Numbered from the stretch's first letter, positions 20,573-35,912 are shown. The stretch is 64,000 nt of DNA from Crocinitomicaceae bacterium (GCA_040379705.1 JBEIKR010000001.1:13973-77972); one strand, 5' to 3'. The notes: generated by a model from the sequence alone, not told the origin. Translations and numbers: made by a program.

Positions 20573-23500
20573 CTATTTCAACAATACAACATGTCCGACA
20601 TATTCGTTAGCCAATTCATTCTGTAAACCTGTGCAGCGGATTTTCCATGTATATACTCCATCTTGTACTGCATCACTGGCAGATGACAAACCAGCATTGT
20701 AAAGAGATCCATCCCATCCTGTGTCTGGGTCTTTTGTACTAAAGACCTGTTCACCCCAACGATTGAAAATGATTAACTCATAGGAATCTCGATCAAATCC
20801 AGAAGTCATTGTAGGTAAGAAGATATCGTTTGTACCATCATTATTCGGTGTAAATGAATTTGGAACATAATATATTAACTCTTCAAAAACAGTCACAGTG
20901 AGCATCATCGTGTCATAACATCCAGCCTCATTGTACGCATAGAGGGTCACGACATAATCAAGCGGCACTTCCGGGAAGGTATGCGCTGGATCGATCGCCA
21001 AACTCGTTGTTCCATCGCTGAAATCCCATAGATAAGAGTACGCATTGGTAGATTGATTCGTAAAGAGCACTTCAGTGGCTGTCGTAAAAACGGTGTCGTT
21101 GTTCACATAGAACATCGCATTCGGGTTATCATACGCACACACCATTTCTGATTGAGTAACAGACACCGCACATCCTGCAGTATTGGTAATGGTTAGGGTA
21201 ACATCATAACATCCTGCCTGGAGATATTGATGGTCAATAGCACCAACCTGATTCGATATTTGTCCATCCCCAAAATCCCATAATACACTTGTGTTTGGTG
21301 CATTTACTAAGTCTGTGAATGTCACATACATTGAAACACACCCAGCAGTATCCGATACATCAAAATCAACAGTTGGAGAACCTAATATCGTTACTGTTTC
21401 TGTGGCAACCCCAGAACAATTTGACTGAAGATCTACCGCATTTAATGTAATAGTGTATGTGCCAGGCGCATTATAGGAATATAAAGGAGTAGGATCAGTC
21501 GATGTCCCACCATCTCCGAAAGTCCAAACGAAATCAAGTGTTGGTGATGACGTGTTTGTGATATCCAATAAACTTTGAACGCAAAGTGGGCTGTTTGCCA
21601 CTGTAAACCCAATGTTAGGCGCTTGTGTTACCTGTACATTTATATTGTTCGATGGCCCTACACAACCCGCAGCGCTTGGCGTAACAGTATAAACAACCGT
21701 TTGTGTCACATTGCTGAGATTTACCAATTCGTCATCAATCACTGAACTAGTCTGGGTGGAAATAGATTCACCAACTACCGAACTATTCTGCGCCGCACTC
21801 CAGGTGTAAGTAGATGGGATATTCGATATTAAGTTATAGTTTACAATCTGTCCTGAACAAATTGTCACATCACTGTGCTGCAGTATCGGGAGTGGATTTA
21901 CAAATACCCACACAGGAATATTTGAACTTGTGCACCCTGTAAGGATAGATGTTGCTTCTATGTTATACACCACTTCCTGCTGTGTCGTAGAATTGTTAAT
22001 TAACAGATCATTTATAAGATCCGATGATTGAGAAACAGTTGTTTCACCCTGCACTATCCCATTATTTGTTGCATACCAACTAAATACCGCATTTTCTGTT
22101 CCTTGAAGGTTTAATGAAACATTGCCTTCACTGCAAATTGTCAACGAATCTAGGTTGGACAAACGAACAGATGGGTGTACCAATACATTAATGGCTTTCG
22201 TAATGCCCGGACAAGCCAATGGTGATGATGTTGGAGTCACAAGATATGTGACAAATTGATCAAGTGTTGTCGTATTAATCAGTTGATCGTTAATGAAATT
22301 GCCATTTTGCAGAATTAACGATTCACCACTAATGTTTGGATTATCTTGTGCCACCCATGTGAATGTTGATGTAACATTCGCTTGCAATGCGATATTTGTA
22401 TATTCATCACTACAAATTTCATAAGTAATCGGACTAATAAGGTTCACATCTGGTATGACTTCCACCATAAAATCTACCGGGGATCCTTGACAACCTTGTG
22501 GAGATGACGTTGGTGTCACGGTGTATGTAACATATTCAATGACCGTCCCATTGTTTTGGAGTGTATTTGACACCGTCGGAGAATTAAACGGAATGAGTGT
22601 TTCACCATTGACATTTGCATTGTTCGTAGCCAACCAGCTGAATGTTGAGTTAATATCTGCGGTCAAACTTACATTCACACTTCCATTATTACATAATGTA
22701 AAATCGCTGATTGGAGGAATGTTTGGTAATGGGTTTACAGTAATTGAATAAATTGAACCCGTTCCAACGCAAGCCGCTTGACTGGAAGTAATGGCCGTAC
22801 CCTGGAACTGTACAATTTCAGCATTCACACTGGAATTATTCAGAGTCATGGATTGAATAACACTTCCACCGGAAGTATTTGGCACACCAGAAATAAACGC
22901 TGGGATTGTCACAACATCCCAACTAATTATTGCACCTGCTGTCGCCGATGAAATCGTCACAGGCAATGTAGATTCATCTGAACAAATGATTTGCGAAGGA
23001 ATGCTATATTGAACAGTTGGTATTGGGTCCACAGTGATGGTGAAATTTTGAGGTGTTCCGTAACACGTTAAGCCCGCATTCAAATATTGCGGTGTCACAG
23101 TCAGCGCAGCCGTCACCGGATTCGACAATAAATTATTTCCATTGAACGACGCAATAGATCCAATTCCCGTTCCCGCTAAGCCAATACTAGGCAATGAATT
23201 GTTCCATGCATATGATGTGGCGTTCCCACTAAACGTTATTGGCAACGTTGCTGTTTGATGACAAACCACTTGGTCTGTAGGGTCAGACACTGAAGGTGTC
23301 GGGTTAATTGTAATCGTAAACGTTTTAGATTGACCTGCGCAGTTCGTACCATTGAGTGAGTTGGATGGTACAACAGTGATTGTTGCCACTATCGGAACCG
23401 ATGAGGGATTAGTTGCTGCAAAAGAAGGGATTGACCCCGTTCCAGAAGATCCTATTCCAATAGATGGATCATTATTGGTCCAAGCAAATGATCCGGTATT

Positions 23501-26500
23501 GCCAGAAAAAACAATGTTTCCTGTTGGCGATCCATTGCACACCACGATATTCTGTGGTTGAGCAAGTGCAGGTGTTGGCAACACGGTAATCCCAATGGAT
23601 TCTGAGTTCCCCAAGCATGTCGTATTTCCTGATGAATAAGCTGGAACCACGTTAATGGTCGCCAAAATAGCACTATTGGATGCGTTCACAGCAGAAAAGT
23701 TATTTATCGCACCTGAGCCATTTGCGGATATACCTATGGACGGAACATTATTGGTCCAATTATAACTTGTGGCAAGGCCACTGAAATTTAAAGCACTGAC
23801 CATATTCCCATCACACACCGTTTGATCAGGAATATCATTCACGATTGGTGTAGGTAAAACTGTAATGGTAAATGTTTCAACATCTCCAGGGCAAGTGGAT
23901 GATCCATTAAACCCAGGGGTTACCGTAAAGGTGGATACAATCGGTACGTTGCCAGCATTGATTGCTGTAAACGATGATATGCTATTTGAGCCAGAAGCAC
24001 CAACTCCAATACTTGGAGTATTGTTTGTCCAGTTATAAATCGACCCTGAACCAGTAAAACCAATTGTTGGAACGGTCGCGCCGTTGCACGCAACAATATC
24101 GGATGGATCATTTACATTTTGGAACGGATTTACAGTGATTGTAAATGTTTGAGGTAATCCTTGGCAAGATGCACCAGAAATCGTTACTGTCGGAATAACG
24201 GTAACGGTACTAGAAATTGGAATTGTCCCATTGTTTGTTGCCGTAAACGGAAGGATATTTCCATTCCCTGTTGCAGATAATCCAATGGATGGATTGTTAT
24301 TTGTCCAATCAAACGTGGTTCCTGGAATTGTTCCACTAAATATGACTTCTGATGTTGTGTATGTATTGCATAAACTTAGTGAGTTAATCGGTGAAACACT
24401 TGGCCCAGAGGTCACGATTAATTCAGCCAAATCTGACGTTGCGACATCACACCCATTTCCGTTTAGGCTGATTCCAATTAAAAAATTGAATGTTCCCGGA
24501 ATGGAAATCGCAGGAGGAGTATAGGATGAGGATGTTGCACCTGGTATTGGGGATACAACACCTCCGGTTGACGTAAACCATTGATAACTGGCTGTTCCAA
24601 GACCGCCAGAATATGAGGCCGTTAAAGGAACTGCAATGGTATTTCCAGAACAAACTGTTTGACTTATTAACGGTTGACTTGTAATGGTTGGATCATCGTT
24701 TACTATGACTTCTGAAATCTGAGAAATTAACGATACGCATCCACTACTAAAATAAATCTCACAATAATAATACGTGGTGCCAATTAATGCATTGCTTGGT
24801 GTATACGTGTTACTTGTGGCACCAACAATTAAGGTCCCTCCGGTCGTTGAATTTGTTGAATTGCTGTACCATTGATAATTGGGTGAACTTGGATTTCCCG
24901 TAGATGTCACCGCAAGTGGTGTTAAGGTCCCTCCTGAACAAATAATCTGACTTGGTATTGGCTGATTGGAAATGATAGCAAGAGGGGCAACTTGAACTGC
25001 TGCAGCAAGAGACGTTGAACCACAGTTGGTTCCCTGAGAAACAACGCAATAATAATACATTGTGCCGATAACCGCTACAGGTGGAGTATATGTACTCAAT
25101 GTGGCTCCTGAAATCAATGTTCCCCCAGTGTTGCTATTCGTCGTGTTACTATACCATTGGTAATTTGCCGTACCAGTACCTCCAGTGACATTCACAGAGA
25201 GCGGCGTCACTGTAGATGCATTTTGACAATAAACTCCACCAATTGGAGCGCTTACTGTAGGATCTGAAACAACCACAACCTGAGCAGTTTGAGAATCAAC
25301 ATTCCCACATCCATTCCCTGAAAGTGTTACGCGAATAATGTAATTAAACGTTCCCGCTGTATTGAAAACAGGTGGCGTATAGGTCGCAGAAGTTGCCCCC
25401 GAAATAAGTGTATTTGTCGCCCCAACGACCGAGTACCATTGGTAACTTGGCGTTCCTGTTCCTCCAGTATAACTTGCTGTTAACGCAGGTGAAATTGAAC
25501 CGCCTACACATATCGTTTGCGTTGCCAATGGTTGAATTGAAATGGTTGGATCTGGATTTATGATGACCGTTGCAATGGAGGAGGTGATGGAAGAACAACC
25601 ACCTGTCGCAAAACTGATTACACAGAAATAGTACGTAGTCCCACTTGTTAATGTGCTTGGAGTGTATGTTGCGCTTGTTGCTCCAACGATTGCTGTCGCC
25701 CCAACTGTCGAGTTTGCCGTATTGCTAAACCACTGGTAGGCAGGACTTCCCGTACCATTCGTGTATATCACTGACAATGCGGTTGCTGTACCACCAACAC
25801 ACAGCGTTTGGGATGCAGTTGGCTGTGTGGTGATTGTTGGACCCGCTGTCACTTGTATACTTGCTACCGCAGATGCTGTGCTGCAATTAGATCCCTGTGA
25901 AACCAAACAATAATAATACACTGTTCCAATAGTGCCCACAGGCGGAGTATAGGTATTGTTTGTAGCTCCAGCGATGAGCGATCCCGTTGTGTTATTGTTG
26001 ACTGTATTGCTATACCATTGATACGAATATGAAGTTGTTAATCCTCCTGAAGCAACAATACTCAAAGGAGTAGGCGTTGCATTTTGACAATATGCGGCAC
26101 TTACTGGCGCACTCACTGTCGGATCTGAAACAACTACAATCTGTGCCGTCTGAGAATCAACAGAACCACACCCATTTCCAGAAAGTGTCACGCGAATGAT
26201 GTAATTAAACGTTCCCGCTGTATTGAATACTGGCGGTGTATAAGTCACCGCTGTGGCCCCTGTGATCAACGTATTTGTTGCACCAACGACCGAGTACCAC
26301 TGGTAACTTGGTGTACCTGCACCTCCAATGTAATTGGCAGTTAAGGCAGATGCAATGGTACCACCAACACAAATAGTCTGTGACGCGATTGGTTCAACAC
26401 TAATGGTTGGATCTGGATTTATGATTACCGTAGCTATTGAGGAGGTAATGGAAGAACAACCACTTACAGCAAAACTAATGACACAGAAATAGTACGTAGT

Positions 26501-29500
26501 CCCACTTGTTAATGTGCTTGGAGTGTACGTTGCGCTTGTTGCTCCAACGATTGCTGTCGCCCCCACTGTCGAGTTTGTCGTATTGCTAAACCATTGGTAG
26601 GCCGGACTTCCCGATCCATTCGTGTATATCACTGACAATGCGGTTGCTGTACCACCAACACACAGCGTTTGGGATGCAGTTGGCTGTGTGGTGATTGTTG
26701 GACCCGCTGTTACCTGAATTGTAGCTACTGCAGATGCTGTGCTGCAATTCGATCCCTGTGAAACCAAACAATAATAATACACTGTACCTATTGTTGCCAC
26801 AGGTGGAGTATAGGTATTGTTTGTTGCTCCAGCGATGATTGTTCCCGTAGTATTATTGTTGACAGTATTGCTATACCATTGATACGAATATGAAGATGTT
26901 AATCCTCCAGATGCAGACACGCTCAATGGAGTAATTGGTGTCGCATTTTGACAATATGAAGCACTTATTGGCGCACTCACTGTCGGATCTGAAACAACCA
27001 CAACCTGAGCAGTTTGAGAATCAACATTCCCACATCCATTCCCTGAAAGTGTCACACGAATGATGTAATTAAAGGTTCCTGCTGTATTGAAAACTGGTGG
27101 CGTATATGTGGCAGCAGTTGCCCCCGAAATAAGTGTATTTGTTGCCCCAACGACCGAATACCACTGGTAACTTGGTGTACCTGCACCACCACTATAACTT
27201 GCTGTTAAGGCAGGTGAAATTGAACCGCCAACACATATCGTTTGCGTTGCCAATGGTTGGATCGAAATGGTTGGATCTGGATTTATGATGACCGTTGCTA
27301 TATTCGAAGTAACAAGAGGACAGCCACTTGATACTAAACTTATCGTGCAGAAATAATATGTGGTTCCAGACACAGTTGATGGAGGAGTATAACTAATCGC
27401 ATTTGCTCCTGTAATTGCAGTAGCACCAACCAATGAGTTCACTGTATTACTATACCATTGGTAGCTAGGTATTCCGGCTCCACCACTATATACAACTGTT
27501 AGCGCTGTTGCCGTCCCTCCAACACAAAGCGTTTGTGTCACCAAAGGTTGAGTTGTAATTGTTGGACTTGCCGTTGTAACAATGGCTGCCGTGGCGGAAT
27601 TTACAGAACAATTTGAGCCCTGAGATACAATGCAATAGTAATAAACAGTTCCAACGGTTGCAACAGAAGGTGTAAAAGTGTTGCTTGTCGCACCCACAAT
27701 CAACGTACCTGTAGTATTGTTGTTTACTGCATTGCTATACCATTGATAACTGTAGGCTGTCGCAATACCGCCCGTTGGGTTGACTGATAATGGTGTCACT
27801 GGAGTAGCATTTTGACAATAAGTGGCAGCAACGGGAGCACTCACCGTTGGATCTGCAACAACAATAATTTGAGCATTTGTGGATTGTACAAAACCACAAC
27901 CATTTCCATTGAGGGTCACTCTAACAATATAGTTAAATGTGCCTGCTGTCGCAAAAACTGGCGGGGTATATGACGCTGCAGTGGCTCCTGCAATAAGCGT
28001 ATTGGTTGCTCCGACAACACTGTACCATTGATACGTCGCTGTACCTGCTCCATCAGTGTAATTCACAGTCAATGCTGGACTAATCGATCCGCCGACACAA
28101 ATTGTTTGAGAAGCAATTGGTTGCAAAGAAATGCTTTGAACAGTGTTTACGTTGACGGTCGCAATGGCTGATGCAATCTGAGAACACCCTCCAGTAGCGA
28201 AGGTAATTGTACAAAAATAATACAGGGTACCTAAGGTATTTCCAGGAGGAGTGAATGTCGCTGAGGTTGCTCCTACTATCGCCGTTGCCCCTGCCGTTGA
28301 ATTCACTGTATTACTAAACCATTGATAGCTAGGCGCACCCGTTCCGTTGGTATAAGCAACAGTCAATGGCGCAGGTGTTCCTCCCAAACAGATAGATTGC
28401 GTGGCCAATGGATTTGTAGTAAATGTTGGACCTGGCGTAGTGACTATGGCAGCCGTTGCTGAGTTAACAGAACAATTTGAACCTTGCGAAACAATGCAAT
28501 AGTAATATACCGTTCCAACGGTTGCAACCACAGGTGTAAATGTGCTATTGGTTGCGCCTGCGATTAATGTACCTGTTGTATTATTATTGGCAGCATTGCT
28601 GTACCATTGATAGGTATACGCCGATGCAATACCACCTGATGCTGTCACTGATAATGGCGCAACTGGTGTAGCATTTTGACAATAAGACGCACCAACTGGT
28701 GCAGTCACCGTTGGGTCGGCTAACACGATGACCTGTGCCTGTTGTGATTGCACGAAACTACATCCACTGCCACTCAATGTCACACGCACAATGTATGTAT
28801 ACGTCCCCGCTGTGGCAAATGTTGGCGGTGTGTAGGTAGATGCTGTAGCTCCCGCAATAGGCGTATTGGTTGCACCAACAACAGTGTACCATTGATATGT
28901 TGCTGTCCCCGTTCCACCCGTATAGGTAACAGAAAGAGCAGGTGAGATTGTACCGCCAACACAAATCGTTTGGGATGCAAGTGGTTGAGTAGCTATAACC
29001 GGTAATCCTACAACGTTGACGGTGGCTACGGCTGTTGTGATTGTTGAACAGCCACTGATTGGATACGTGACGACACAATAATAATAGAATGTCCCTGCAG
29101 TTGTAGTGGGTGGAACATAAGTGATAGACGTTGCACCTGCAATCAGCGTTCCCCCGGTATTTGAGTTCGTTGTATTGGAATACCACTGATAGCTTGGTGT
29201 GCCTGTTCCACCCGCTAAAGTCATGGTGATTGTTGTTGGTACTCCTCCAACACAAACGGTTTGCGTCGTTAAAGGTTGAACACTTACTGTTGGTTGACCT
29301 GTTACAATGATTGAAGCCGTTGACGACGAGGTTGAACAATTTGATCCCTGACTAACAATGCAGTAATAATAGAATGTTCCAATCGTCGCTACAGAAGGAG
29401 TGTAGGTACTACTAGTGGCCCCAGCAATAAGTGTCCCAGTGGTATTATTATTGGCCGCATTGCTATACCATTGATAGGAATATGCCGATGGAATACCTCC

Positions 29501-32500
29501 AGTTGCTGTAACGCTCAATGGAACTACTGTGGATGAGTTTTGACAATACGAGGCGGCAATTGGCGCTGTAAGTATTGGATCAGCGACCACCACAACTTGG
29601 GCTTGCTGCGAGGTAGCCGTCGAACAACCATTGCCAGTCTGAGCGACATTTACTGTATAATTAAACGTACCAGCGGTATTAAAAGTTGGTGGTGTATAGG
29701 TTGCTAAGGTTGCACCGGATATTGATGCCCCATTCAATAACCACTGGTACGAAAATGTACCCAATCCTCCAGTGGCTGATACAGTGAATGCAGGAGCTAT
29801 TGTTCCCCCAACACATATTGTTTGCGAGGCAAGCGGTTGTGTTGAAATGACTGGGTCTGCATTTAAAATGACCGTTCCTATAGCCGATGTGAATACCGAA
29901 CATCCACTTAACGGATAGGTGATCACACAATAGTAATAGGTGGTTCCTGCTGTGGCAACCGGTGGTGTAAACGTAGCAGCAGTCGCTCCTGTAATCAGGG
30001 TGCCTCCCACTGTAGAATTCACTGTATTGCTGTACCACTGATAACTAGGGGTACCCGTTCCGCCCGCAAGCGTGACACTTAAATTTGTAGGCACTCCACC
30101 CACACATAGCGTTTGAGTTGCCAAGGGTTGCGCAGTAATTGTTGGTTGACTTGTCACCAAAACGGACGCAACTGCAGACGTCGCATTGCAATTGGAACCC
30201 TGATTCACAATGCAGTAATAATAGATCGTGCCTAAAGCAGAGACAGGAGGAGTAAACGTTGACGAGGTTGCTCCGGCAATCAATGTACCCGTTGTATTAT
30301 TATTTGCAGCATTGCTATACCACTGATACGTTGGTGTACCTGTTCCTCCATTCACAGTAATTGACAGAGGAACTACAGTCGAAGAATTCTGGCAGTACGA
30401 TGCATTGACAAGACCTGTTAATGTTGGGTCAGCGATAACAACCACTTGGGCATTGGCGGAGGAAATTGCATTGCATCCATTTCCTGTTGAACTCACAGTC
30501 ACAAAATAATTGAACGTCCCAGCCGCAGCGTATGAAGGAGGTGAATATGTGCTGGCTGTGGCAGATGGTATCAGTGTGTTCGTTGCACCAGAGACACTAT
30601 ACCACTGATAACTAGCTGTACCAACACTTCCTGTGTAAGAAATTGACAGCGGCGATGATATAGTACCTCCCACACAAATTGTCTGAGCAGCTGTAGGTTG
30701 TACAGTAATTGTTGGATCCGGGAGAACCGTTATAGTTAATACATTCGATATCAATTGGCAACTAATATTGTTTAGCGTACTTATTACAATGCGTCTGTAA
30801 TAAATGGTAGCCGTTGCAACTGGGGGGTCGTAAGTGGCTGCATTCGCATTCGAGATGTTCGTCCAAGTGATATTATCCGTAGATGATTGCCATTGGTATG
30901 TCAAAACACCAGGTCCTGAAGCAGCTGTGGTTACTGTAAAGGCCGCAGGATCTCCGCCAGTACAAATTGTTTGACTTGCCGCAATCACTCCTGGATTAAT
31001 GGAAATCACAGAAATCGTTATGGGTGCGGTTGCCAATGGACATGACAATCCGTTTAGTGTACTTGTTGCGATGAGCTGATAATAAGTGGTAACAGATGTC
31101 GCTGGTGGATCATAACTCGTTCCAGTTTGCCCGGTAATGTCTGCATAACCAGTAGTTGATGATGTCGTGGATGTTTGCCATTGATAGGATATACTTCCAG
31201 AGCCAGCGGCAGGTGTCACCGTGGATAATATGATTGGGTCTTCACCAGGACATATCGTTTGTGATGCCGCAATTGTGCCCGATGAAATGGCATTAATTGT
31301 TATTGTTACCACATTCGATATAGCATTACACGCCACATTATTCGATGTGTAAATCACAATTCGTCGATAATAGATCACCGTTGATGTCACTGGTGGATCA
31401 TACGTTGCGAGGGTTGCACCTGCAATATCCACCCACGTTACATTGTTTGTGGATGACTGCCATTGATAGCTCACTATTCCTGCGCCAACAGGAGCAGTTC
31501 CTGTTAATATTGCAGGATTTCCACCTGGACAAATTAATTGATCCGAACTAATTGTTCCTGGTGACACAACATTTAATGTGGCCGTAACCGTTTGTGTTGG
31601 TCCAACGCATCCCAATAAAGATGTGGGAGTAACATTATAGGTAACAACCTGAGGTACTGTCGTTAGGTTTGTAAGAATATCCGTGATCGTATTGGTAGAT
31701 TGAGGGGTGGTTGATTCACCTGATACATTTGTATTGCTTGTTGCAGACCATGAATACGTCGCTGACATGTTTGACGTCAATGCAACAGCCAATGGAAGAG
31801 AACTACAACTCGTCACTCCGACAGGAAGCATTACGGGCAATGGATTGACAATCACCGTTTGGGTGCATGTTGACGCACACGTTGTCAAAGGCAACAAAGT
31901 TGCTGAATTCAGTGGTGTAGCAGTGAGTGATACAATAAAGGTTTTAGGAATATTCGACGTATTGGTGAATGTAATATTAGGATTCACTGCGGTTGTCGAT
32001 GTGATGGTGCTGGTGCCGCCGGTAGGATTGGTAACCGTCCAAACATAGCTCATAGGAATAGGAGTTCCTTGGCACGTGGGAACCACCGTGGTGTTTGTTG
32101 TAGCAACCGTTAATGGGCTGCACCCTGAGGTTGGAGATGTCGTAAACCCACAAGCTACAGGTGCATACACGCATATAGTTTTGGTAAATACACTATTCCC
32201 ACACGGATTTTTTACACGCAAAGTGACCGTGTACTCCCCTGGCGTATTAAACAAAACGGATAAAGCGTTTGATCCAACAGTCCAAGTAGCTTGAGAGTTA
32301 GAATTTAATGGATTTGCTCCCAATGAACCTGATGTTAAAGTCCATAACGTTGCTGGCGTATTAGGAGTGATGGTCCAATAAAATGGAGATGTTGAAACAC
32401 AACTGGCACCATTTGCAGTGGGAAGCGTCCACCCGAAAAAAGATGTATTTGTAAAATTCACCGAGGACCCAACACAAATATAACTGGATGAATTTGTGAA

Positions 32501-33715
32501 ACTAGCCGCTGGTCCTTGTCCTACACTAATCAAACCAGCTGCAGAGGGTTGAGGTTGAACGGAACATGGGTTTTGAGTAATTACTGAGGGTTGAAAAACA
32601 TTGTAATACGTAACGCCAGAGATATTGACATTACTTCCACAGGAAGTGGTTGTAAATGTGTGTTGCAATGTAGCTGGGAAATTCGGATGGGTGTAAACTT
32701 CAGAAGGCGATCCATCGCCCCAATTCACTGTGTATGTCGTACCATTCACATTCGTAGAAGGCACATAAAAATTGTATTCTGTGGCATGTGGAACACACCC
32801 ATTCGCTTGATTAATGAACAATGCTAAACTTGCAGGCGAAGGGGAGCTACCAACAAAGACAGGATAAGTTTTCGTCAAAACACACCCACTTGTTAGCGTG
32901 ACATTTATGATTAAACTATACCCGCCTGGAGAATAAGCATATGATTGCAGGGCACTCCAGTTGCTGCTGTTGAGGCTCACAGAAGTTCCATCACCCCAAT
33001 TGACTGTGACGGATTGTACCGTACTCTGATTTGAGGGAAGGTTAATGTTGAACGCGATTAAACCCGTTAACTCGCCATCTTGAAGACAATAGGACAATTG
33101 ATTTTGAGCATTAAAAAACCCACTAGAAATTGAAACGCTTCCTACTGAAATATTTACGGTATCACTTGCTTCACACGCCCCCGCAGAGGCACTGACAATA
33201 TAATTCCCTGAATTGTTAGGTTGTGCATTATTGATGGTTGGGTCCGCTTGAGAACTATTGTAGTTATTCGGTCCGTCCCAGTCATAATCAACAGTCCCAC
33301 TGGGGTTTCCAATGATCGTTGAATTAAAATTAATGGGGCTTCCAGGACAAATGACCATATCTGGGCCTGCATTAATGGAAAAGCCGTTTGTTACAATCAG
33401 ATCCATGTCATTTGAATCAAAACAATCTGGATCAGAACCCGAAAATACAAACACCTCATACGTTCCTGCCATATTTGCCGTGGCCGGACCTAAATTTAAT
33501 ACAGGACCAGAGGTTGATAGCGTATCACCATTTGGGCCAATCCATACAAAGTCTGGATTTTGCCCAACACCCTGAACATTTATTGCCGTCAAAATAACAT
33601 TCGATCCCGAACATACAATTTGGTCGGGCAGACCTACATTCGCATTGCAGCCACCTTGAGCATTTAGGTTCAAGGTAAATAATACGAGGGTCATAAATGA
33701 AAGAACTAGTCTCAT
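20573..33715 (-). CDS. giant (4380 aa) T9SS type B sorting-domain cell-surface repeat protein, a possible SprB-like adhesin
   Basis: It is a single uninterrupted 13,143-nt ORF with signal peptide MRLVLSFMTLVLFTLNLNAQ. It contains N-terminal PKD-like modules (NWGDG), 25 YQW modules, 6 NNPSIGL-type modules, 4 (plus 1 N-terminal) SW..T.N.N..GE modules and 3 PKD domains. The C-terminus is YVPNSFTPNNDGTNDIF...FNRWGEQVF...WDG...DGVYTWKI. Confidence 0.9.
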   Translation of the reverse strand: MRLVLSFMTLVLFTLNLNAQGGCNANVGLPDQIVCSGSNVILTAINVQGVGQNPDFVWIGPNGDTLSTSGPVLNLGPATANMAGTYEVFVFSGSDPDCFDSNDMDLIVTNGFSINAGPDMVICPGSPINFNSTIIGNPSGTVDYDWDGPNNYNSSQADPTINNAQPNNSGNYIVSASAGACEASDTVNISVGSVSISSGFFNAQNQLSYCLQDGELTGLIAFNINLPSNQSTVQSVTVNWGDGTSVSLNSSNWSALQSYAYSPGGYSLIINVTLTSGCVLTKTYPVFVGSSPSPASLALFINQANGCVPHATEYNFYVPSTNVNGTTYTVNWGDGSPSEVYTHPNFPATLQHTFTTTSCGSNVNISGVTYYNVFQPSVITQNPCSVQPQPSAAGLISVGQGPAASFTNSSSYICVGSSVNFTNTSFFGWTLPTANGASCVSTSPFYWTITPNTPATLWTLTSGSLGANPLNSNSQATWTVGSNALSVLFNTPGEYTVTLRVKNPCGNSVFTKTICVYAPVACGFTTSPTSGCSPLTVATTNTTVVPTCQGTPIPMSYVWTVTNPTGGTSTITSTTAVNPNITFTNTSNIPKTFIVSLTATPLNSATLLPLTTCASTCTQTVIVNPLPVMLPVGVTSCSSLPLAVALTSNMSATYSWSATSNTNVSGESTTPQSTNTITDILTNLTTVPQVVTYNVTPTSLLGCVGPTQTVTATLNVVSPGTISSDQLICPGGNPAILTGTAPVGAGIVSYQWQSSTNNVTWVDIAGATLATYDPPVTSTVIYYRRIVIYTSNNVACNAISNVVTITINAISSGTIAASQTICPGEDPIILSTVTPAAGSGSISYQWQTSTTSSTTGYADITGQTGTSYDPPATSVTTYYQLIATSTLNGLSCPLATAPITISVISINPGVIAASQTICTGGDPAAFTVTTAASGPGVLTYQWQSSTDNITWTNISNANAATYDPPVATATIYYRRIVISTLNNISCQLISNVLTITVLPDPTITVQPTAAQTICVGGTISSPLSISYTGSVGTASYQWYSVSGATNTLIPSATASTYSPPSYAAAGTFNYFVTVSSTGNGCNAISSANAQVVVIADPTLTGLVNASYCQNSSTVVPLSITVNGGTGTPTYQWYSNAANNNTTGTLIAGATSSTFTPPVSALGTIYYYCIVNQGSNCNATSAVASVLVTSQPTITAQPLATQTLCVGGVPTNLSVTLAGGTGTPSYQWYSNTVNSTVGGTLITGATAATFTPPVATAGTTYYYCVITYPLSGCSVFTSAIGTVILNADPVISTQPLASQTICVGGTIAPAFTVSATGGLGTFSYQWLLNGASISGATLATYTPPTFNTAGTFNYTVNVAQTGNGCSTATSQQAQVVVVADPILTAPIAASYCQNSSTVVPLSVTATGGIPSAYSYQWYSNAANNNTTGTLIAGATSSTYTPSVATIGTFYYYCIVSQGSNCSTSSSTASIIVTGQPTVSVQPLTTQTVCVGGVPTTITMTLAGGTGTPSYQWYSNTTNSNTGGTLIAGATSITYVPPTTTAGTFYYYCVVTYPISGCSTITTAVATVNVVGLPVIATQPLASQTICVGGTISPALSVTYTGGTGTATYQWYTVVGATNTPIAGATASTYTPPTFATAGTYTYIVRVTLSGSGCSFVQSQQAQVIVLADPTVTAPVGASYCQNATPVAPLSVTASGGIASAYTYQWYSNAANNNTTGTLIAGATNSTFTPVVATVGTVYYYCIVSQGSNCSVNSATAAIVTTPGPTFTTNPLATQSICLGGTPAPLTVAYTNGTGAPSYQWFSNTVNSTAGATAIVGATSATFTPPGNTLGTLYYFCTITFATGGCSQIASAIATVNVNTVQSISLQPIASQTICVGGSISPALTVNYTDGAGTATYQWYSVVGATNTLIAGATAASYTPPVFATAGTFNYIVRVTLNGNGCGFVQSTNAQIIVVADPTVSAPVAATYCQNATPVTPLSVNPTGGIATAYSYQWYSNAVNNNTTGTLIVGATSNTFTPSVATVGTVYYYCIVSQGSNCSVNSATAAIVTTASPTITTQPLVTQTLCVGGTATALTVVYSGGAGIPSYQWYSNTVNSLVGATAITGANAISYTPPSTVSGTTYYFCTISLVSSGCPLVTSNIATVIINPDPTISIQPLATQTICVGGSISPALTASYSGGAGTPSYQWYSVVGATNTLISGATAATYTPPVFNTAGTFNYIIRVTLSGNGCGNVDSQTAQVVVVSDPTVSAPISASYCQNATPITPLSVSASGGLTSSYSYQWYSNTVNNNTTGTIIAGATNNTYTPPVATIGTVYYYCLVSQGSNCSTASAVATIQVTAGPTITTQPTASQTLCVGGTATALSVIYTNGSGSPAYQWFSNTTNSTVGATAIVGATSATYTPSTLTSGTTYYFCVISFAVSGCSSITSSIATVIINPDPTISVEPIASQTICVGGTIASALTANYIGGAGTPSYQWYSVVGATNTLITGATAVTYTPPVFNTAGTFNYIIRVTLSGNGCGSVDSQTAQIVVVSDPTVSAPVSAAYCQNATPTPLSIVASGGLTTSYSYQWYSNTVNNNTTGSLIAGATNNTYTPPVGTIGTVYYYCLVSQGSNCSTASAVASIQVTAGPTITTQPTASQTLCVGGTATALSVIYTNGTGSPAYQWFSNTANSTVGATAIVGATSATYTPSTLTSGTTYYFCVISFATGGCSSITSSIATVIINPDPTISIQPLATQTICVGGSISPALTASYTGGTGTPSYQWYSVVGATNTLISGATSATYTPPVFNTAGTFNYIIRVTLSGNGCGNVDSQTAQVVVVSDPTVSAPIGGVYCQNASTVTPLSVNVTGGTGTANYQWYSNTTNSNTGGTLISGATLSTYTPPVAVIGTMYYYCVVSQGTNCGSTSLAAAVQVAPLAIISNQPIPSQIICSGGTLTPLAVTSTGNPSSPNYQWYSNSTNSTTGGTLIVGATSNTYTPSNALIGTTYYYCEIYFSSGCVSLISQISEVIVNDDPTITSQPLISQTVCSGNTIAVPLTASYSGGLGTASYQWFTSTGGVVSPIPGATSSSYTPPAISIPGTFNFLIGISLNGNGCDVATSDLAELIVTSGPSVSPINSLSLCNTYTTSEVIFSGTIPGTTFDWTNNNPSIGLSATGNGNILPFTATNNGTIPISSTVTVIPTVTISGASCQGLPQTFTITVNPFQNVNDPSDIVACNGATVPTIGFTGSGSIYNWTNNTPSIGVGASGSNSISSFTAINAGNVPIVSTFTVTPGFNGSSTCPGDVETFTITVLPTPIVNDIPDQTVCDGNMVSALNFSGLATSYNWTNNVPSIGISANGSGAINNFSAVNASNSAILATINVVPAYSSGNTTCLGNSESIGITVLPTPALAQPQNIVVCNGSPTGNIVFSGNTGSFAWTNNDPSIGIGSSGTGSIPSFAATNPSSVPIVATITVVPSNSLNGTNCAGQSKTFTITINPTPSVSDPTDQVVCHQTATLPITFSGNATSYAWNNSLPSIGLAGTGIGSIASFNGNNLLSNPVTAALTVTPQYLNAGLTCYGTPQNFTITVDPIPTVQYSIPSQIICSDESTLPVTISSATAGAIISWDVVTIPAFISGVPNTSGGSVIQSMTLNNSSVNAEIVQFQGTAITSSQAACVGTGSIYSITVNPLPNIPPISDFTLCNNGSVNVSLTADINSTFSWLATNNANVNGETLIPFNSPTVSNTLQNNGTVIEYVTYTVTPTSSPQGCQGSPVDFMVEVIPDVNLISPITYEICSDEYTNIALQANVTSTFTWVAQDNPNISGESLILQNGNFINDQLINTTTLDQFVTYLVTPTSSPLACPGITKAINVLVHPSVRLSNLDSLTICSEGNVSLNLQGTENAVFSWYATNNGIVQGETTVSQSSDLINDLLINNSTTQQEVVYNIEATSILTGCTSSNIPVWVFVNPLPILQHSDVTICSGQIVNYNLISNIPSTYTWSAAQNSSVVGESISTQTSSVIDDELVNLSNVTQTVVYTVTPSAAGCVGPSNNINVQVTQAPNIGFTVANSPLCVQSLLDITNTSSPTLDFVWTFGDGGTSTDPTPLYSYNAPGTYTITLNAVDLQSNCSGVATETVTILGSPTVDFDVSDTAGCVSMYVTFTDLVNAPNTSVLWDFGDGQISNQVGAIDHQYLQAGCYDVTLTITNTAGCAVSVTQSEMVCAYDNPNAMFYVNNDTVFTTATEVLFTNQSTNAYSYLWDFSDGTTSLAIDPAHTFPEVPLDYVVTLYAYNEAGCYDTMMLTVTVFEELIYYVPNSFTPNNDGTNDIFLPTMTSGFDRDSYELIIFNRWGEQVFSTKDPDTGWDGSLYNAGLSSASDAVQDGVYTWKIRCTGLQNELANEYVGHVVLLK
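24400..31575 (-). repeat. Intragenic tandem array of 25 about 96-aa YQW modules, the central 21 forming seven A-B-C triplets with an 861-864 bp period
   Basis: I counted 25 occurrences of YQW(Y/F/Q/L) in the protein. At DNA level GGATCTGAAACAAC.. recurs at 25260, 26121 and 26985. Positions 25755-25849 are identical to 26616-26710 (95 nt). Confidence 0.9.
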
Positions 33716-33724
33716 AGTAGTATT

Positions 33725-34240
33725 TTAATATCGGATTGCAAATATATCAGAAGCGAATTGATTTTTTTTTCTGCGATCATTATTACTTCTCAAAGGATAA
33801 TCGCCTGCATAGAATTTTTCAGCAAAAGAAAAAAAAGCATTCAGATCAAAAGCCCTCCAAGTAAATTGTGTTTTTATTTCGATCTGGGGATTAAATCTGG
33901 AAGAAAATGCAGCATCTAAACCATCAAATCGTTGTTCACATAATGCTGGGTTTTGAAGCTTTGGGATGAATAGGCAATTGATTGCGTATCTATGGAATTG
34001 TCGAACGACAGAATTATGGATATTTTTTCTATTTTTCATAGATAGAAAATGAAAACTGGCCATGTCAGACTGCTTAGTATAAGTGATAATACTATCTTGA
34101 TCACTCCATAACAATTTTTGGAAGTATGACATCAATGATGCTTTTTTATCGCAAATAACTGTAATTAAACTATTTACGAGGTGATTTTCTTTAAGAAAAC
34201 TCCTTCTATTCAAATTCCATGTATCCACAAGATTTAGCAC
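33725..34240 (-). CDS. hypothetical protein, AT-rich, coding status uncertain
   Basis: A 171-codon ORF with a GTG start ends 9 nt upstream of the giant gene's ATG. I see no recognisable motif. Spot counts of several 60-nt lines give about 30-33% GC. Confidence 0.3.
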   Translation of the reverse strand: MLNLVDTWNLNRRSFLKENHLVNSLITVICDKKASLMSYFQKLLWSDQDSIITYTKQSDMASFHFLSMKNRKNIHNSVVRQFHRYAINCLFIPKLQNPALCEQRFDGLDAAFSSRFNPQIEIKTQFTWRAFDLNAFFSFAEKFYAGDYPLRSNNDRRKKNQFASDIFAIRY

Positions 34241-34495
34241 CTTGCAAAAATAGTCAAAATCATAAAACGTATTGAATACAAAGCCTTTAAGAATACATTA
34301 ATTTCGTGATGGTCGAGAAGCGAAGTGAATCAACATGGTGTGCTGTTCTCTTCGCCGAGGCTTATTCACCTTGGCTCTTTTTTCGTGGTCCAAAGGTCTG
34401 AAATATCGAACTTGTTGAAGGAGGATGTGAATGAAATGAGAAATCTTAAAGACTAAAGACCATATCACATCAACTAATGAAATTTGGACTACCTT

Positions 34496-34503
34496 TAAGT
34501 TTG
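34496..34503 (+). promoter_or_regulatory. candidate Bacteroidota -7 promoter box (TAnnTTTG) for the fic gene
   Basis: TAAGTTTG lies 14 nt upstream of the ATG at 34517. This is a motif match only. Confidence 0.3.
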
Positions 34504-34516
34504 TTATTTTCCATTT

Positions 34517-35398
34517 ATGAATAGCTCAAAAATATCCATTCGTTTTTTTAATGACCGCGAAGTCCGTGCCGTTTGGGATGAAGAAAATACAAATTGGAAA
34601 TTTAGTGTGTTGGATATCGTTTCAGTGTTAAATGATGAGGTTGATTACGCTAAAAACAGGAACTATTGGAAATATCTCAAAGCCAAGCTCAAGAAAGAGG
34701 GAAGTCAGTTGGTTAGTACCACTAACCAACTCAAACTTCAAGCGGCTGATGGCAAGAAATACAACACGGATGTTTTGGACAGTGAAGGAGTGGTCTTGTT
34801 AGCGAAAAGTTTTCCAAATAATCGAGCACTAAAATTTCTAGATTGGTTCTTATACAGTGATAATAGTCTTGACGGTCAAAGTAAGAAAAAGGCATATACA
34901 TTATTTGAAGGAAATTTACTCGAAAACATCGAGGTCGGAACCTCAAAGGGATTGCAGCAAATTCATGCCTATTTATTTGGAGGCCTTTACGAATTTGCAG
35001 GTCAAATCCGTCAAAAAAACATTTCTAAAGGAGGCTTTCAATTTGCCAATGCCAGATTCCTGGATGATACATTAAAACGGATAGAACAAATGTCAGAGAG
35101 CAACTTCGATGAAATCGTTGACAAATACGTTGAAATGAATGTTGCGCATCCGTTCATGGAAGGAAACGGTCGAAGCAGTCGGATTTGGTTGGATTTAATG
35201 CTGAAAAAGAATATTCAAAAATGTGTAGATTGGAGTAAAATAGGCAAAATCGAGTATATGGAGGCAATGCGCGCCAGTACAACAGAAAGCAGTTTATTGA
35301 GGGATTTGTTGATGAATGCTTTAACAAAACAAATCAATGATCGAGAGCTTTTTATGAAAGGAATCGACTATTCCTACTACTATGAGGAAAATAATTAG
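34517..35398 (+). CDS. Bro-N domain / Fic (filamentation induced by cAMP) fusion protein, a putative AMP-transferase
   Basis: The N-terminus FNDREVRAVWDEENTNWKFSVLDIVSVL...DSEGVVLLAKSFPNNRALKFLDW is a Bro-N-like pattern. The C-terminal core carries the canonical Fic motif HPFMEGNGRSSR (HPFx[D/E]GNGRxxR). Confidence 0.85.
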   Translation: MNSSKISIRFFNDREVRAVWDEENTNWKFSVLDIVSVLNDEVDYAKNRNYWKYLKAKLKKEGSQLVSTTNQLKLQAADGKKYNTDVLDSEGVVLLAKSFPNNRALKFLDWFLYSDNSLDGQSKKKAYTLFEGNLLENIEVGTSKGLQQIHAYLFGGLYEFAGQIRQKNISKGGFQFANARFLDDTLKRIEQMSESNFDEIVDKYVEMNVAHPFMEGNGRSSRIWLDLMLKKNIQKCVDWSKIGKIEYMEAMRASTTESSLLRDLLMNALTKQINDRELFMKGIDYSYYYEENN

Positions 35399-35420
35399 AT
35401 TAACTTCTAATCAATTGATA

Positions 35421-35650
35421 TCGCGAGAGAGAAGAAAAACTAGAGTGGAGTGAACCGCTCTCGCTTTTCACTTTTAGCCCTGAGTCTATCGAAGGGTCAC
35501 TCTGTTTTGGTGGGCCAAAGGTCGGAAATATCGAACTTTTTGAGGGATTTACAAGAAGTAATTGAAGTGTGAGGTTGAGTGCGAGAGTGACGAAAAACAT
35601 AGTGGAGTGAACCGCTCTCGCTTTTCACTCTCACTCTGTTTTGGTGGTCC
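35421..35650. repeat. Direct repeats of the tRNA 3'-flanking sequence
   Basis: GCGAGAG(A/T)GA(A/C)GAAAAAC(T/A)..AGTGGAGTGAACCGCTCTCGCTTTTCACT....CACTCTGTTTTGGTGG(G/T)CC occurs at about 35423-35516 and about 35581-35650. The second copy runs into the last 9 nt of the tRNA. A third partial copy is at 34375-34424. Confidence 0.8.
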
Positions 35651-35718
35651 CACACAGGCTCGAACTGTGGACCCACAGATTATGAGTCTGTTGCTCTAAC
35701 CAACTGAGCTATAGGACC
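35642..35718 (-). tRNA. tRNA with anticodon CAT (elongator Met or lysidine-modified Ile2), CCA encoded
   Basis: The reverse complement is GGTCCTATAGCTCAGTTGGTTAGAGCAACAGACTCATAATCTGTGGGTCCACAGTTCGAGCCTGTGTGGGACCACCA. It has a 7-bp acceptor stem (GGTCCTA/TGGGACC with G-U pairs), a D-arm AGCTCAGTTGGTTAGAGC, an anticodon stem ACAGA/TCTGT with loop CTCATAA, and a T-arm CACAG TTCGAGC CTGTG. Confidence 0.9.
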
Positions 35719-35912
35719 ATGTTGCTAAACGACGCAACGGTTAATTATGTCTGGTCCTATGGCGAAGTTGCCTGTTCCGCTTTTACGCAGTAAATGCGGA
35801 AAGCTATAGGACCATGTTGCTAAACGACGCAACGGTTAATTATTTCAATTGTCCTATTAGCGAAATTGCCTGTTCCGCTTTTACGAAGTGAATGCGGAAA
35901 GCTATAGAACCA
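35707..35912. repeat. Tandem 95-98 bp repeats upstream of the tRNA, each beginning with the tRNA's first 12-13 nt
   Basis: AGCTATAGGACCATGTTGCTAAACGACGCAACGGTTAATTAT...GCCTGTTCCGCTTTTACG(C/A)AGT(A/G)AATGCGGAA starts at 35707 and 35802. A truncated third start, AGCTATAGAACCA, is at 35900. Confidence 0.85.

What the first reader, a model, noticed from the sequence alone, without database searches (positions are those of the whole stretch)
24400..31575. 25 tandem 'YQW' Ig-like modules, 21 of them forming seven copies of an 861-864 bp three-module super-repeat, inside a 13.1-kb T9SS cargo gene
The 4380-aa ORF contains 25 modules of about 96 aa, each with a conserved Cys near the start, a YQW(Y/F/Q/L) core, GAT..TYTP and a second Cys (..YYYC.V / GNGC..).
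- After three YQWQ-type modules, the next 21 follow a strict A-B-C order. A is QP.A.QTICVGG...YQWYSVVGATN. B is ASYCQNA...YQWYSNxxNNNTTG...YYYCIVSQGSNC. C is QTLCVGG...YQWFSNTxNSTVGATA...YYFC.
- The evolving unit is therefore a 287-288 aa triplet, not a single domain.
- The youngest copies are nearly identical at DNA level. GGATCTGAAACAAC recurs at 25260, 26121 and 26985, and 25755-25849 equals 26616-26710 over 95 nt.
- This points to recent unequal recombination or gene conversion. Copy number is likely to vary between strains, and short-read assemblies could collapse the array.
- I do not know the function of the three-module grammar. Rigid stalk extension of a surface adhesin is the obvious guess.
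Basis: seen in the sequence. Interest (0 to 1): 0.7.

Follow-up and report, generated by a model that had tools for sequence, protein, structure and literature searches.

The report
Three-class Ig super-repeat in T9SS protein
A giant secreted surface protein of a Bacteroidota bacterium carries 25 immunoglobulin-like beads, 22 of them in a strict A-B-C order; this three-bead unit turns out to be an old, widespread building block that grows, shrinks and is overwritten only as whole triplets.

Summary
The ORF at 20573-33715 (-) encodes 4380 aa with a type B T9SS sorting domain. It holds 25 YQW modules: Q1-Q3, then (A-B-C)x7, then an eighth, divergent A. DNA periods are 852-864 bp.

Modules are distant Pfam Ig_7 / I-set-like Ig domains. 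Same-class identity averages 59-68%; neighbours share 40-46%.

The triplet is not peculiar to this gene.
- Orthologues in Crocinitomicaceae, Cryomorphaceae and other Flavobacteriales MAGs share Q3-(ABC)n-A, with n = 4, 5, 7, 8 or 11.
- The cyclic A>B>C order was favoured in 53 of 55 arrays, including Flavobacterium and Paludibacter.

Gene conversion is shown directly.
- Against a sister species (dS about 1.05, omega 0.08), all modules are 1:1 orthologues except A6 and B6, which were overwritten from triplet 5.
- In a 98%-identical variant, A6 equals A7.

Copy number is 7 in all three genomes, so variation between strains is not supported.

The most likely function is the shaft of a long surface fibre. 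This is inferred from the fold and from resemblance to GhpA and titin Ig strings.

I rate it a new variant of a known kind, of moderate interest.

The parts
20573..33715 (-). Whole gene: 4380-aa secreted protein made almost entirely of beta-sandwich modules
   Evidence: ORF list and translation. Pfam and NCBIfam hits. Internal module map.
33656..33715 (-). N-terminal Sec-type signal peptide (aa 1-20, MRLVLSFMTLVLFTLNLNAQ)
   Evidence: Read from the translation. This is inference from the sequence pattern; no predictor was run.
31568..33655 (-). N-terminal region, aa 21-716: PKD-type modules at about aa 214-515, a further module at 542-635 and one PKD_5-like module at 635-717
   Evidence: Weak I-set and InlK_D3 Pfam hits. 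Self-profile search. No PDB sequence hit.
30710..31567 (-). Q1-Q3: three YQWQ-type Ig-like modules (aa 717-1002)
   Evidence: Q/Q identity is 45-56%; Q versus A, B or C is 22-40%. A QQQ block precedes the array in several orthologues, e.g. L006, L007, L010, L024.
29849..30709 (-). Triplet 1 (A1-B1-C1), 861 bp
   Evidence: 1:1 orthologue in L010.
28997..29848 (-). Triplet 2 (A2-B2-C2), 852 bp; A2 is 4 aa shorter
28133..28996 (-). Triplet 3 (A3-B3-C3), 864 bp
27269..28132 (-). Triplet 4 (A4-B4-C4), 864 bp
26405..27268 (-). Triplet 5 (A5-B5-C5), 864 bp; probable donor of the conversion into triplet 6
25544..26404 (-). Triplet 6 (A6-B6-C6), 861 bp; A6 and B6 are not orthologous to A6 and B6 of the sister species but to its A5 and B5
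   Evidence: wA6 versus xA5 77% against xA6 63%; wB6 versus xB5 78% against xB6 61%. Identity to triplet 5 rises from 68% at the 5' end to 98-100% in C.
24686..25543 (-). Triplet 7 (A7-B7-C7), 858 bp; A7 is 92% identical in DNA to A5
24398..24685 (-). A8: divergent terminal A-type module that closes the array
   Evidence: Class HMM gives A at 94.5 bits. 81% DNA identity to A8 of L010. Every orthologous array seen whole ends in A.
25755..25849 (.). 95-nt exact repeat, copy 1 (in C6); copy 2 is at 26616-26710 (in C5)
21620..24376 (-). Ten PKD_5-like two-Cys modules (aa 3114-4032), remote homologues of the YQW modules
   Evidence: PKD_5 244.8 bits over 5 stretches. Self-profile search joins them to the YQW modules.
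20891..21598 (-). Three PKD domains (aa 4040-4275)
   Evidence: PKD_4 and PKD Pfam hits.. PDB sequence hits to collagenase PKD domains.
20597..20866 (-). CHU_C / type B T9SS C-terminal sorting domain (aa 4284-4373)
   Evidence: PF13585 54.6 bits. TIGR04131 37.7 bits against a cut-off of 35.

Best explanation
What it is. The region is the central shaft of a giant cell-surface protein. [quoted passage not shown]

The shaft is a string of I-set-like immunoglobulin domains. Each keeps two invariant cysteines that probably form one disulfide. The domains come in three anciently diverged classes that always follow one another in the order A, B, C.

How it evolves. Only same-class modules share enough DNA identity to recombine. 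Unequal crossing-over and gene conversion therefore act in register, one triplet (about 861 bp) at a time.
- Orthologues differ by whole triplets (n = 4 to 11).
- Individual triplets or modules are occasionally overwritten by a neighbouring same-class copy.
- Each module is otherwise kept under strong purifying selection.

Proposed function. Triplet number sets the length of an extended fibre, at roughly 4 nm per domain by analogy with other Ig strings. I propose that the three classes are kept distinct because the A|B, B|C and C|A junctions are three different co-adapted interfaces. Unlike neighbours may also fold more cleanly.

Shown: the anatomy, the class grammar, its conservation, the triplet-wise copy-number differences, the conversion events, the purifying selection, the Ig fold prediction and the sorting domain.

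Inferred: surface anchoring, the fibre or stalk role, the disulfide pairing, and the reason for three classes.
For: Anatomy and grammar.

Sorting domain.

Domain family and fold:
- Ig_7 scores: C 30.4 bits (cut-off 27.3), B 24.1, A 22.9.
- AF2 of triplet 5 gives three beta-sandwiches, pLDDT 87.8, pTM 0.68.
- Foldseek hits are strings of I-set Ig domains. The best TM-score for the triplet, and the best E-value for six domains, go to the Ig stem of the T9SS fibre GhpA (9fly_A). Titin I65-I70 comes next.

Conservation of the architecture:
- Q3-(ABC)n-A occurs in L001, L005-L008, L010, L012, L024 and L055, with n = 4 to 11.
- Triplets are mostly positional orthologues between species, with a few recent whole-triplet duplications. 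L012 triplets 2 and 3 are 99% identical; L005 triplets 5-7 are about 90%.
- Lag-3 and lag-6 identity peaks appear in about 25 arrays.
- Cyclic A>B>C was favoured over the reverse order in 53 of 55 arrays. Class hallmarks are visible in Flavobacterium, Paludibacter and Bacteroidales arrays.

Conversion.

Selection: omega 0.08 at dS 1.05 across the array.

[quoted passage not shown] GhpA has the layout N-terminal tip, Ig stem, C-terminal T9SS domain (bioRxiv 10.1101/2024.01.29.577165).
Against: - No experiment or localisation data exist for this protein or any close relative.
- No distinct non-beta-sandwich 'head' was found, so the idea of a stalk that projects a head is weaker than for classical adhesins.
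- No porP/sprF gene lies next to the gene.
- AF2 does not fix the arrangement of six domains (pTM 0.42), so rigidity is not shown.
- The same domain family contains arrays of 97-100% identical neighbours, and arrays of period 2 or 4. Three classes are therefore not a requirement of the fold.
- The related loci were picked with an A-B-C query. This biases the 53 of 55 count towards A-B-C arrays.
Confidence: 0.6

Rival explanations
1. Avoidance of misfolding is the main reason for the grammar. Neighbouring Ig domains must stay below roughly 40-50% identity to avoid domain-swapped misfolding, so arrays can lengthen safely only by copying units of several unlike domains.
For: - Lag-1 and lag-2 identities stay at 29-51% in period-3 arrays, even where lag-3 identity is 99-100%. 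Examples are P0191, P0202, P0240 and P0265, and the loci.
- The principle is established for titin-type Ig tandems (PMC4660218).
- It is discussed for multi-domain duplication units in PMC1553488.
Against: - The same family holds arrays whose neighbours are 97-100% identical (P0163, P0224, P0238) or 74-87% identical.
- Two classes would be enough to protect nearest neighbours.
- The model does not explain why the order A>B>C, rather than A>C>B, is conserved.
Confidence: 0.3
2. The array is itself the working part. It would be a multivalent binding surface in which A, B and C each recognise a different ligand, for example glycans, as proposed for Ig-like decoration proteins of phages.
For: - The only sequence-level PDB relatives are phage Ig-like decoration and tail proteins carrying the same YQW / Y-x-C motifs: 9ncf_S, 9c2d_S, 5lxk_A, 8zvi_a. 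Hoc of phage RB49 is among the fold hits.
- Omega of 0.08 is low for a mere spacer.
- The surface is rich in Thr, Ser and Asn and almost free of charge.
Against: - No binding site, ligand or pocket was identified.
- Positional orthologues are conserved individually, but paralogues of one class differ by 30-50%. That fits poorly with a shared ligand.
- Nothing was tested.
Confidence: 0.2
3. The protein forms a multi-stranded fibre like the heptameric GhpA grappling hook. The three classes would occupy non-equivalent positions in the lateral packing.
For: - GhpA is the closest solved bacterial structure.
- It has the same overall layout and the same secretion route.
- Strong constraint on whole domains (omega 0.08) would fit surfaces buried in lateral contacts.
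Against: - No sequence-level match to GhpA at E <= 0.01; identity is 19-22% in fold alignments.
- No PorP/PorE genes lie next to the gene, unlike ghpA (bioRxiv 10.1101/2024.01.29.577165).
- Oligomerisation cannot be tested with these tools.
Confidence: 0.12
4. The array length or order is an assembly artefact of repeated DNA.
For: Related arrays often end contigs: 17 of 80 loci. Most protein-database homologues are fragments on contigs of about 1 kb.
Against: - Two independent assemblies give the same 25 modules in the same order: P0308 (98% aa, no gaps, another metagenome contig) and L010 (sister species).
- The longest exact repeat is only 95 nt, and triplets differ by 6-40% in DNA.
Confidence: 0.02

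Closest known systems
GhpA grappling-hook protein of Aureispira (T9SS substrate; PDB 9fly, 9fls)
   Same: [quoted passage not shown]
- It is the best structural match to the predicted triplet (TM 0.55) and to the six-domain model (E 2.6e-17) (bioRxiv 10.1101/2024.01.29.577165).
   Different: - No sequence-level hit; 19-22% identity.
- GhpA has a distinct N-terminal hook and adjacent PorP/PorE homologues, and it forms a heptamer. None of these is seen or testable here.
- The paper describes no three-class grammar for GhpA.
Titin and nebulin super-repeats; multi-domain duplication units (Bjorklund et al. 2006, PMC1553488)
   Same: - Tandem Ig-type domains in which similarity peaks at a fixed lag, because several unlike domains are duplicated together.
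- Duplications lie mostly inside the array.
- Titin I65-I70 is among the top fold hits.
   Different: - Those cases are eukaryotic and intracellular, with units of 7 or 11 domains.
- The array here is bacterial and secreted, with a unit of 3 and in-register gene conversion visible at strain level.
Periscope Proteins (SasG, Rib, Sgo_0707, CdrA; PMC8201768)
   Same: - Bacterial surface proteins whose tandem folded domains form an elongated array, with length changed by intragenic recombination.
- SasG also alternates two unlike units (G5 and E).
   Different: - Periscope repeats are highly identical (>=80%), and repeat number changes between similar strains.
- Here neighbours share 40-46% identity and triplets mostly 50-75%. 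Copy number is the same in a 98%-identical variant and in a sister species.
SprB and other type B CTD adhesins of Flavobacterium johnsoniae (PMC12618676)
   Same: Very large repetitive cell-surface proteins with a TIGR04131 type B CTD. Some are 'orphans' without an adjacent sprF-like gene.
   Different: No SprB-repeat (PF13573) hit in this protein. A role in gliding is not implied.
Pfam Ig_7 (PF19081, 'Ig-like domain CHU_C associated') and phage Ig-like decoration domains (Hoc-type)
   Same: Single-module homology: the three modules of triplet 5 together score 46.9 bits against Ig_7. Phage proteins 9ncf_S, 9c2d_S and 5lxk_A are hit by sequence and share the YQW and Y-x-C motifs.
   Different: These models describe one domain. 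They do not capture the three classes or their order.

Membership tests
T9SS type B CTD substrate (TIGR04131 / Pfam CHU_C) | C-terminal domain matching TIGR04131 or PF13585 above the curated cut-off | tested here: met
   PF13585 54.6 bits (cut-off 27). TIGR04131 37.7 bits (cut-off 35). Both at aa 4284-4373.
T9SS type B CTD substrate (TIGR04131 / Pfam CHU_C) | N-terminal Sec signal peptide | tested here: inconclusive
   MRLVLSFMTLVLFTLNLNAQ looks like a signal peptide.
T9SS type B CTD substrate (TIGR04131 / Pfam CHU_C) | Cognate porP/sprF-like gene directly downstream (common, but not obligatory; orphans exist) | tested here: not met
   None lies next to the gene. The nearest PorP_SprF gene, at 44969-45952, follows another CHU_C gene. 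PMC12618676 describes orphan substrates.
Pfam Ig_7 (PF19081) | Module scores above the gathering threshold of 27.3 bits | tested here: inconclusive
   C5 30.4 bits (met). B5 24.1 and A5 22.9 (below). Q1 and A8 gave no hit. The triplet as a whole scores 46.9 bits. The full-length scan did not list Ig_7.
Immunoglobulin I-set-like fold | Beta-sandwich with Ig strand topology and a core Trp in strand C | tested here: met
   AF2 pLDDT 87.8. Foldseek probability 1.00 to I-set strings: OTK, Sidekick, titin, NCAM. This is a prediction, not a solved structure.
Periscope Proteins | Tandem repeats of high identity (>=80% was the screen used in PMC8201768) | tested here: not met
   Neighbouring modules share 40-46%. 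Among triplets only T5/T6 reaches 91% aa; the rest are 50-75%.
Periscope Proteins | Repeat number varies between closely related strains | tested here: not met
   There are 7 triplets in the window, in P0308 (98% aa) and in L010. Only one close variant was available.
Periscope Proteins | Rod-like array projecting an N-terminal functional domain | not testable with these tools
   Six-domain AF2 pTM is 0.42. No distinct head domain was found.
Super-repeat (titin-type multi-domain duplication unit) | Similarity between domains peaks at a fixed lag greater than 1, with distinct classes in fixed order | tested here: met
   In the window protein (database copy P0158), identity at lags 1-6 is 43, 43, 71, 43, 44, 67%. 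Strict ABC order.
GhpA-type grappling hook | Sequence homology to GhpA; heptameric hollow stem; N-terminal hook; adjacent PorP/PorE genes | tested here: not met
   No sequence hit at E <= 0.01. No adjacent PorP/PorE genes. Oligomeric state is not testable. Only fold-level similarity was found.
SprB family | SprB repeats (PF13573) | tested here: not met
   PF13573 is not among the hits of the full protein.

The most novel reading that the evidence does not exclude
The A>B>C grammar may be a structural code rather than a frozen accident. The three classes would form three non-equivalent, co-adapted junctions, or lateral contacts in a multi-stranded GhpA-like fibre. These would give the shaft a defined three-domain axial repeat. 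That would explain why the order has been kept across Flavobacteriales and Bacteroidales, and why length can change only in steps of three domains.
Probability: 0.12. Interest if true: 0.75.

Novelty: new variant of a known kind. Interest (0 to 1): 0.45.

Why it matters
Giant T9SS surface proteins are among the least understood products of Bacteroidota genomes. They are usually annotated only as 'gliding motility-associated' or 'PKD domain' proteins.

This analysis shows that a large subfamily is built from a conserved three-class Ig unit. The profile search found 1,642 protein clusters at E <= 1e-30 and 13,389 at E <= 0.001.

Practical consequences:
- It gives a handle for annotation, through class-specific models and triplet counts.
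- It explains why these genes fragment in short-read assemblies.
- It predicts that fibre length is quantised in steps of three domains.

It also offers a natural bacterial system for a long-standing question from the titin field. Do unlike neighbours exist to prevent misfolding, to build specific junctions, or only because several domains were copied together? Closely related arrays with identical neighbours, period-2 arrays and period-3 arrays all exist and can be compared.

Tried and rejected
- Tandem Repeats Finder found nothing. Its maximum period is 500, so this says nothing either way.
- The homologue search with the full 4380-aa query timed out. The N-terminal 716 aa gave only relatives of <=48% identity, mostly truncated.
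- Unsupervised k-means on a one-hot alignment of 969 modules did not separate A from C cleanly. I replaced it with a test of cyclic against anti-cyclic phase assignment.
- My window-trained class HMMs labelled most distant modules 'C'. Direct alignment showed that A-, B- and C-like hallmarks are nevertheless present.
- I tested whether strain differences are templated by paralogues. 52 of 77 differences match a same-class paralogue, but 47 of 77 also match other-class modules. The aggregate test is therefore uninformative, and only single-donor tracts count: A6, 15 of 15 from A7.
- A cysteine-parity idea, an inter-domain B-C disulfide explaining the triplet, was dropped. The F-strand Cys of B and C is absent from B- and C-like modules of other arrays such as L023, while the first and last Cys are kept in every module aligned.
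- The metagenome scan for contigs of the same species found nothing closer than 53%. Exact look-up of the window protein found no contig. The DNA of P0308's contig could not be fetched.
- The 171-aa ORF upstream (33725-34240) has no Pfam hit and no counterpart in L010.
- The six-domain AF2 model gave no confident overall geometry.

Full report
**1. The observation**

The window holds one uninterrupted ORF on the minus strand, 20573-33715, of 4380 codons.
- The tripeptide YQW occurs 25 times at spacings of 91-98 residues, between aa 717 and 3106 (window 24398-31567).
- HMMs built for the four classes read the protein as QQQ-ABC-ABC-ABC-ABC-ABC-ABC-ABC-A.

Identity within a class averages 65% (A), 68% (B) and 59% (C). 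Between classes it is 40-46%.

At DNA level, direct-repeat families are spaced 861, 864, 864, 864 and 852 nt. Triplet lengths from the boundaries are 861, 852, 864, 864, 864, 861 and 858 bp.

The 95-nt exact repeat (25755-25849 = 26616-26710) and the three copies of GGATCTGAAACAAC are exactly as stated.

There are two corrections.
- The 25th module is a divergent A-type module, so 22 modules follow the grammar.
- The youngest copies are 87-94% identical in DNA (dS 0.19-0.47), not nearly identical.

**2. What the protein is**

The C-terminus matches CHU_C (54.6 bits) and TIGR04131, the type B T9SS sorting domain (37.7 bits against a cut-off of 35). The N-terminus looks like a Sec signal peptide (inference).

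Single modules are weak members of Pfam Ig_7, 'Ig-like domain CHU_C associated'. C scores 30.4 bits against a threshold of 27.3; B scores 24.1 and A 22.9.

A self-profile search shows that aa 635-4032 form one continuous string of 36 homologous two-Cys modules:
- one PKD_5-like module;
- Q1-3, the 22 A/B/C modules;
- ten PKD_5-like modules.

PKD domains lie at both ends of the protein. I found no domain that is not a beta-sandwich.

AlphaFold2 predicts three Ig sandwiches for triplet 5 (pLDDT 87.8, pTM 0.68). Foldseek against the PDB returns strings of I-set Ig domains.
- The best TM-score (0.55) goes to the Ig stem of GhpA, the T9SS-secreted grappling hook of Aureispira.
- Titin I67-I69 and phage Hoc are also among the hits.

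A six-domain model keeps confident domains (pLDDT 80) but not a confident overall shape (pTM 0.42). GhpA and titin I65-I70 are again its top hits.

By sequence, the only solved relatives are phage Ig-like decoration and tail proteins that share the YQW and Y-x-C motifs.

**3. Genomic context**

The window is ordinary Bacteroidota chromosome. It carries:
- SusC/SusD, TonB and efflux genes;
- pyruvate kinase, glycine dehydrogenase and MetK;
- four CHU_C genes in all.

Only the CHU_C gene at 43740-44972 is followed by a porP/sprF gene (44969-45952). The giant gene is therefore an 'orphan' type B substrate in the sense of PMC12618676.

**4. The triplet is old and widespread**

A profile of the seven triplets finds 13,389 representatives of 50%-identity clusters at E <= 0.001, and 1,642 at E <= 1e-30.

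In GTDB species genomes, at least 572 stretches encode relatives. Classifying the 80 best loci shows the same architecture, Q3-(ABC)n-A, in MAGs labelled Crocinitomicaceae, Cryomorphaceae and Flavobacteriales. Values of n are 4 (L008), 5 (L006, L007, L024), 7 (L010, L055), 8 (L012) and 11 (L005). A long-read lagoon metagenome contig has n = 4 (L001).

Identity by lag peaks at 3 and 6 in about 25 arrays. These include Flavobacterium, Paludibacter and Bacteroidales arrays that my window-trained HMMs had labelled uniformly 'C'.

Direct alignment shows that those arrays carry the same three hallmark sets, in the same cyclic order:
- A: PP-x-F insertion, no F-strand Cys, SGNGC;
- B: C-Q-N after the first Cys, and a one-residue deletion after G-x-G-C;
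- C: S-TVC-GG-P, ending in NPDP.

I scored all six phase-to-class assignments. The cyclic order beats the reverse order in 53 of 55 arrays of six or more modules.

Two caveats apply.
- The loci were retrieved with an A-B-C query, which favours such arrays.
- Among the 150 best cluster representatives, 109 have arrays of at least seven modules. Of these, 39 are period-3 (34 with a clear A-B-C signal), 9 are homogeneous (several with 97-100% identical neighbours), 4 are period-2, and the rest show no period.

Three is therefore the dominant period in this subfamily, but not a law of the fold.

**5. How the array evolves**

*Sister species.* The closest genome locus, L010, is about 80% identical in DNA, collinear across the whole gene, and has the same 25 modules.
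- Module by module, orthologues are 76-81% identical in DNA and clearly closer than any paralogue, with two exceptions.
- The window's A6 and B6 match L010's A5 and B5 (77% and 78%) rather than its A6 and B6 (63% and 61%). C5 and C6 of each genome are equally close to both C5 and C6 of the other.
- Triplet 6 was therefore overwritten from triplet 5 in the window's lineage, without any change in count. This could be gene conversion, or a duplication followed by a loss.
- Identity between triplets 5 and 6 rises from 68% at the 5' end to 98-100% in C. This suggests more than one tract.

*Selection.* Across the array, dS is 1.05 and dN/dS is 0.08. Each module is individually maintained.

*Close variant.* The 90%-identity cluster of the window protein holds one other sequence, P0308.
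- It has 4380 aa, is 98% identical with no gaps, and comes from a different metagenome contig.
- Its differences from the window protein number 83 in the 2390 array residues against 10 in the 1990 flanking residues (odds ratio 7.1, p = 4e-13).
- In P0308, A6 is identical to A7, and all 15 differences in A6 are explained by that single donor.
- B5, C5 and C6 show smaller tracts consistent with exchange between triplets 5 and 6.
- A pooled donor-match statistic was not informative: 52 matches against 47 in the control.

*More distant orthologues.* Triplets are mostly positional orthologues. A few whole-triplet duplications are recent: L012 triplets 2 and 3 are 99% identical, and L005 triplets 5-7 are about 90%.

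*Conclusion.* Recombination is real and in register. Copy number changes slowly, and it did not change among the three closest genomes.

**6. Assembly**

Two independent assemblies agree on 25 modules, so an artefact is unlikely here.

- In 17 of 80 related loci the array runs into a contig end.
- Most database homologues are fragments on contigs of about 1 kb.
- The long-read locus L001 is split by frameshifts.

**7. Mechanism**

The best-supported reading is a long surface fibre, or the shaft of one.
- It is secreted by the T9SS and retained through its type B CTD by a PorP/SprF-type shuttle encoded elsewhere (family knowledge from PMC12618676).
- Its length is set by the number of triplets.

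The in-register recombination follows from the sequence itself. Same-class modules are 57-94% identical in DNA, and different classes 39-56%.

Why the classes stay distinct, and in a fixed order, is not settled. I favour three co-adapted junctions. Avoidance of misfolding between like neighbours (PMC4660218, PMC1553488) probably contributes. It cannot be the whole story, because sister arrays tolerate identical neighbours.

The two Cys kept in every module aligned, the first in Q-T-x-C and the last in G-x-G-C, probably form one disulfide per module. This is inferred from the strand positions in the AF2 secondary structure and was not tested.

**8. Comparison and verdict**

The gene is a new member of the known kind 'giant T9SS type B Ig-repeat surface protein'.

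Its organisation is a bacterial counterpart of titin-type super-repeats. It differs from Periscope Proteins, whose repeats are near-identical and whose number varies between strains (PMC8201768).

My library searches found no description of a three-class grammar in T9SS substrates. These searches were limited.

I rate it a new variant of a known kind, of moderate interest. It is well documented and general, and it is useful for annotation and for testing ideas about tandem-domain evolution. Its cellular function is still unknown.

Noticed in passing
window 24398-31567 (aa 717-3106): The array is almost free of charged residues: K 0, H 0, E 0.2%, R 0.4%, D 1.2%. Thr is 17.5% and Ser 11.8%. The Bacteroidota O-glycosylation motif D-(S/T)-(A/I/L/M/T/V) does not occur inside the array, and occurs only six times in the whole protein.
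   Followed up: partly
window 21620-24376 and 31568-31810 (aa 3114-4032 and about 635-717): The PKD_5-like modules flanking the YQW array are remote homologues of the YQW modules, with the same two-Cys framework. Aa 635-4032 therefore form one string of 36 related modules, in sub-blocks of 5 'NWTNN-PSIG' type, 1 odd module and 4 'SW-A-N--V-GE' type.
   Followed up: partly
window 5258-7183 (-), 16797-19859 (+), 43740-44972 (+), 44969-45952 (+): Three further CHU_C (type B CTD) genes lie in the same 64 kb. Only the gene at 43740-44972 has a porP/sprF gene directly downstream. The neighbour at 16797-19859 carries a clear Ig_7 domain plus PKD domains, and is conserved next to the giant gene in L010.
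   Followed up: partly
window 33725-37071: Upstream of the giant gene lie a 171-aa ORF with no family and no counterpart in L010, a Fic/DOC plus Bro-N protein gene (34517-35398), a tRNA (35645-35718, -) and a radical SAM/SPASM gene. DNA synteny with L010 stops at 33726, which hints at a variable or inserted segment.
   Followed up: partly
proteins P0163, P0224, P0238; P0222, P0230, P0286; P0282, P0304: The same Ig family includes arrays with 94-100% identical neighbouring modules (20 identical modules in P0224). It also includes arrays with period 2 and period 4. These are natural contrasts to the period-3 grammar.
   Followed up: no
proteins P0193 and P0197: These two arrays are period-3 (lag-3 identity 82% and 93%), but their neighbours are 62-67% identical and they give no A-B-C signal. 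They may be independent, younger origins of a three-module unit.
   Followed up: no
window 33694-33715: One database copy of this protein (P0158) is called from Met8 (MTLVLF...), and the close variant P0308 from Met1 (MRLVLSF...). The start codon is therefore annotated inconsistently.
   Followed up: yes
module C7, window 24686-24976: C7 differs at 9 of 97 residues between the window and P0308. Unlike in A6, most of these changes match no paralogue, so they look like point substitutions rather than conversion. C7 also has one of the highest omega values against L010 (0.14, shared with B6).
   Followed up: partly
locus L001 (lagoon metagenome, long-read assembly): An orthologue with 4 triplets is split into about 17 called genes by frameshifts. 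PorP_SprF and OmpA-family genes lie a few kb upstream on the other strand, and a Fib_succ_major gene lies downstream. A Fib_succ_major gene also lies near the window's gene, at 14777-16792.
   Followed up: partly
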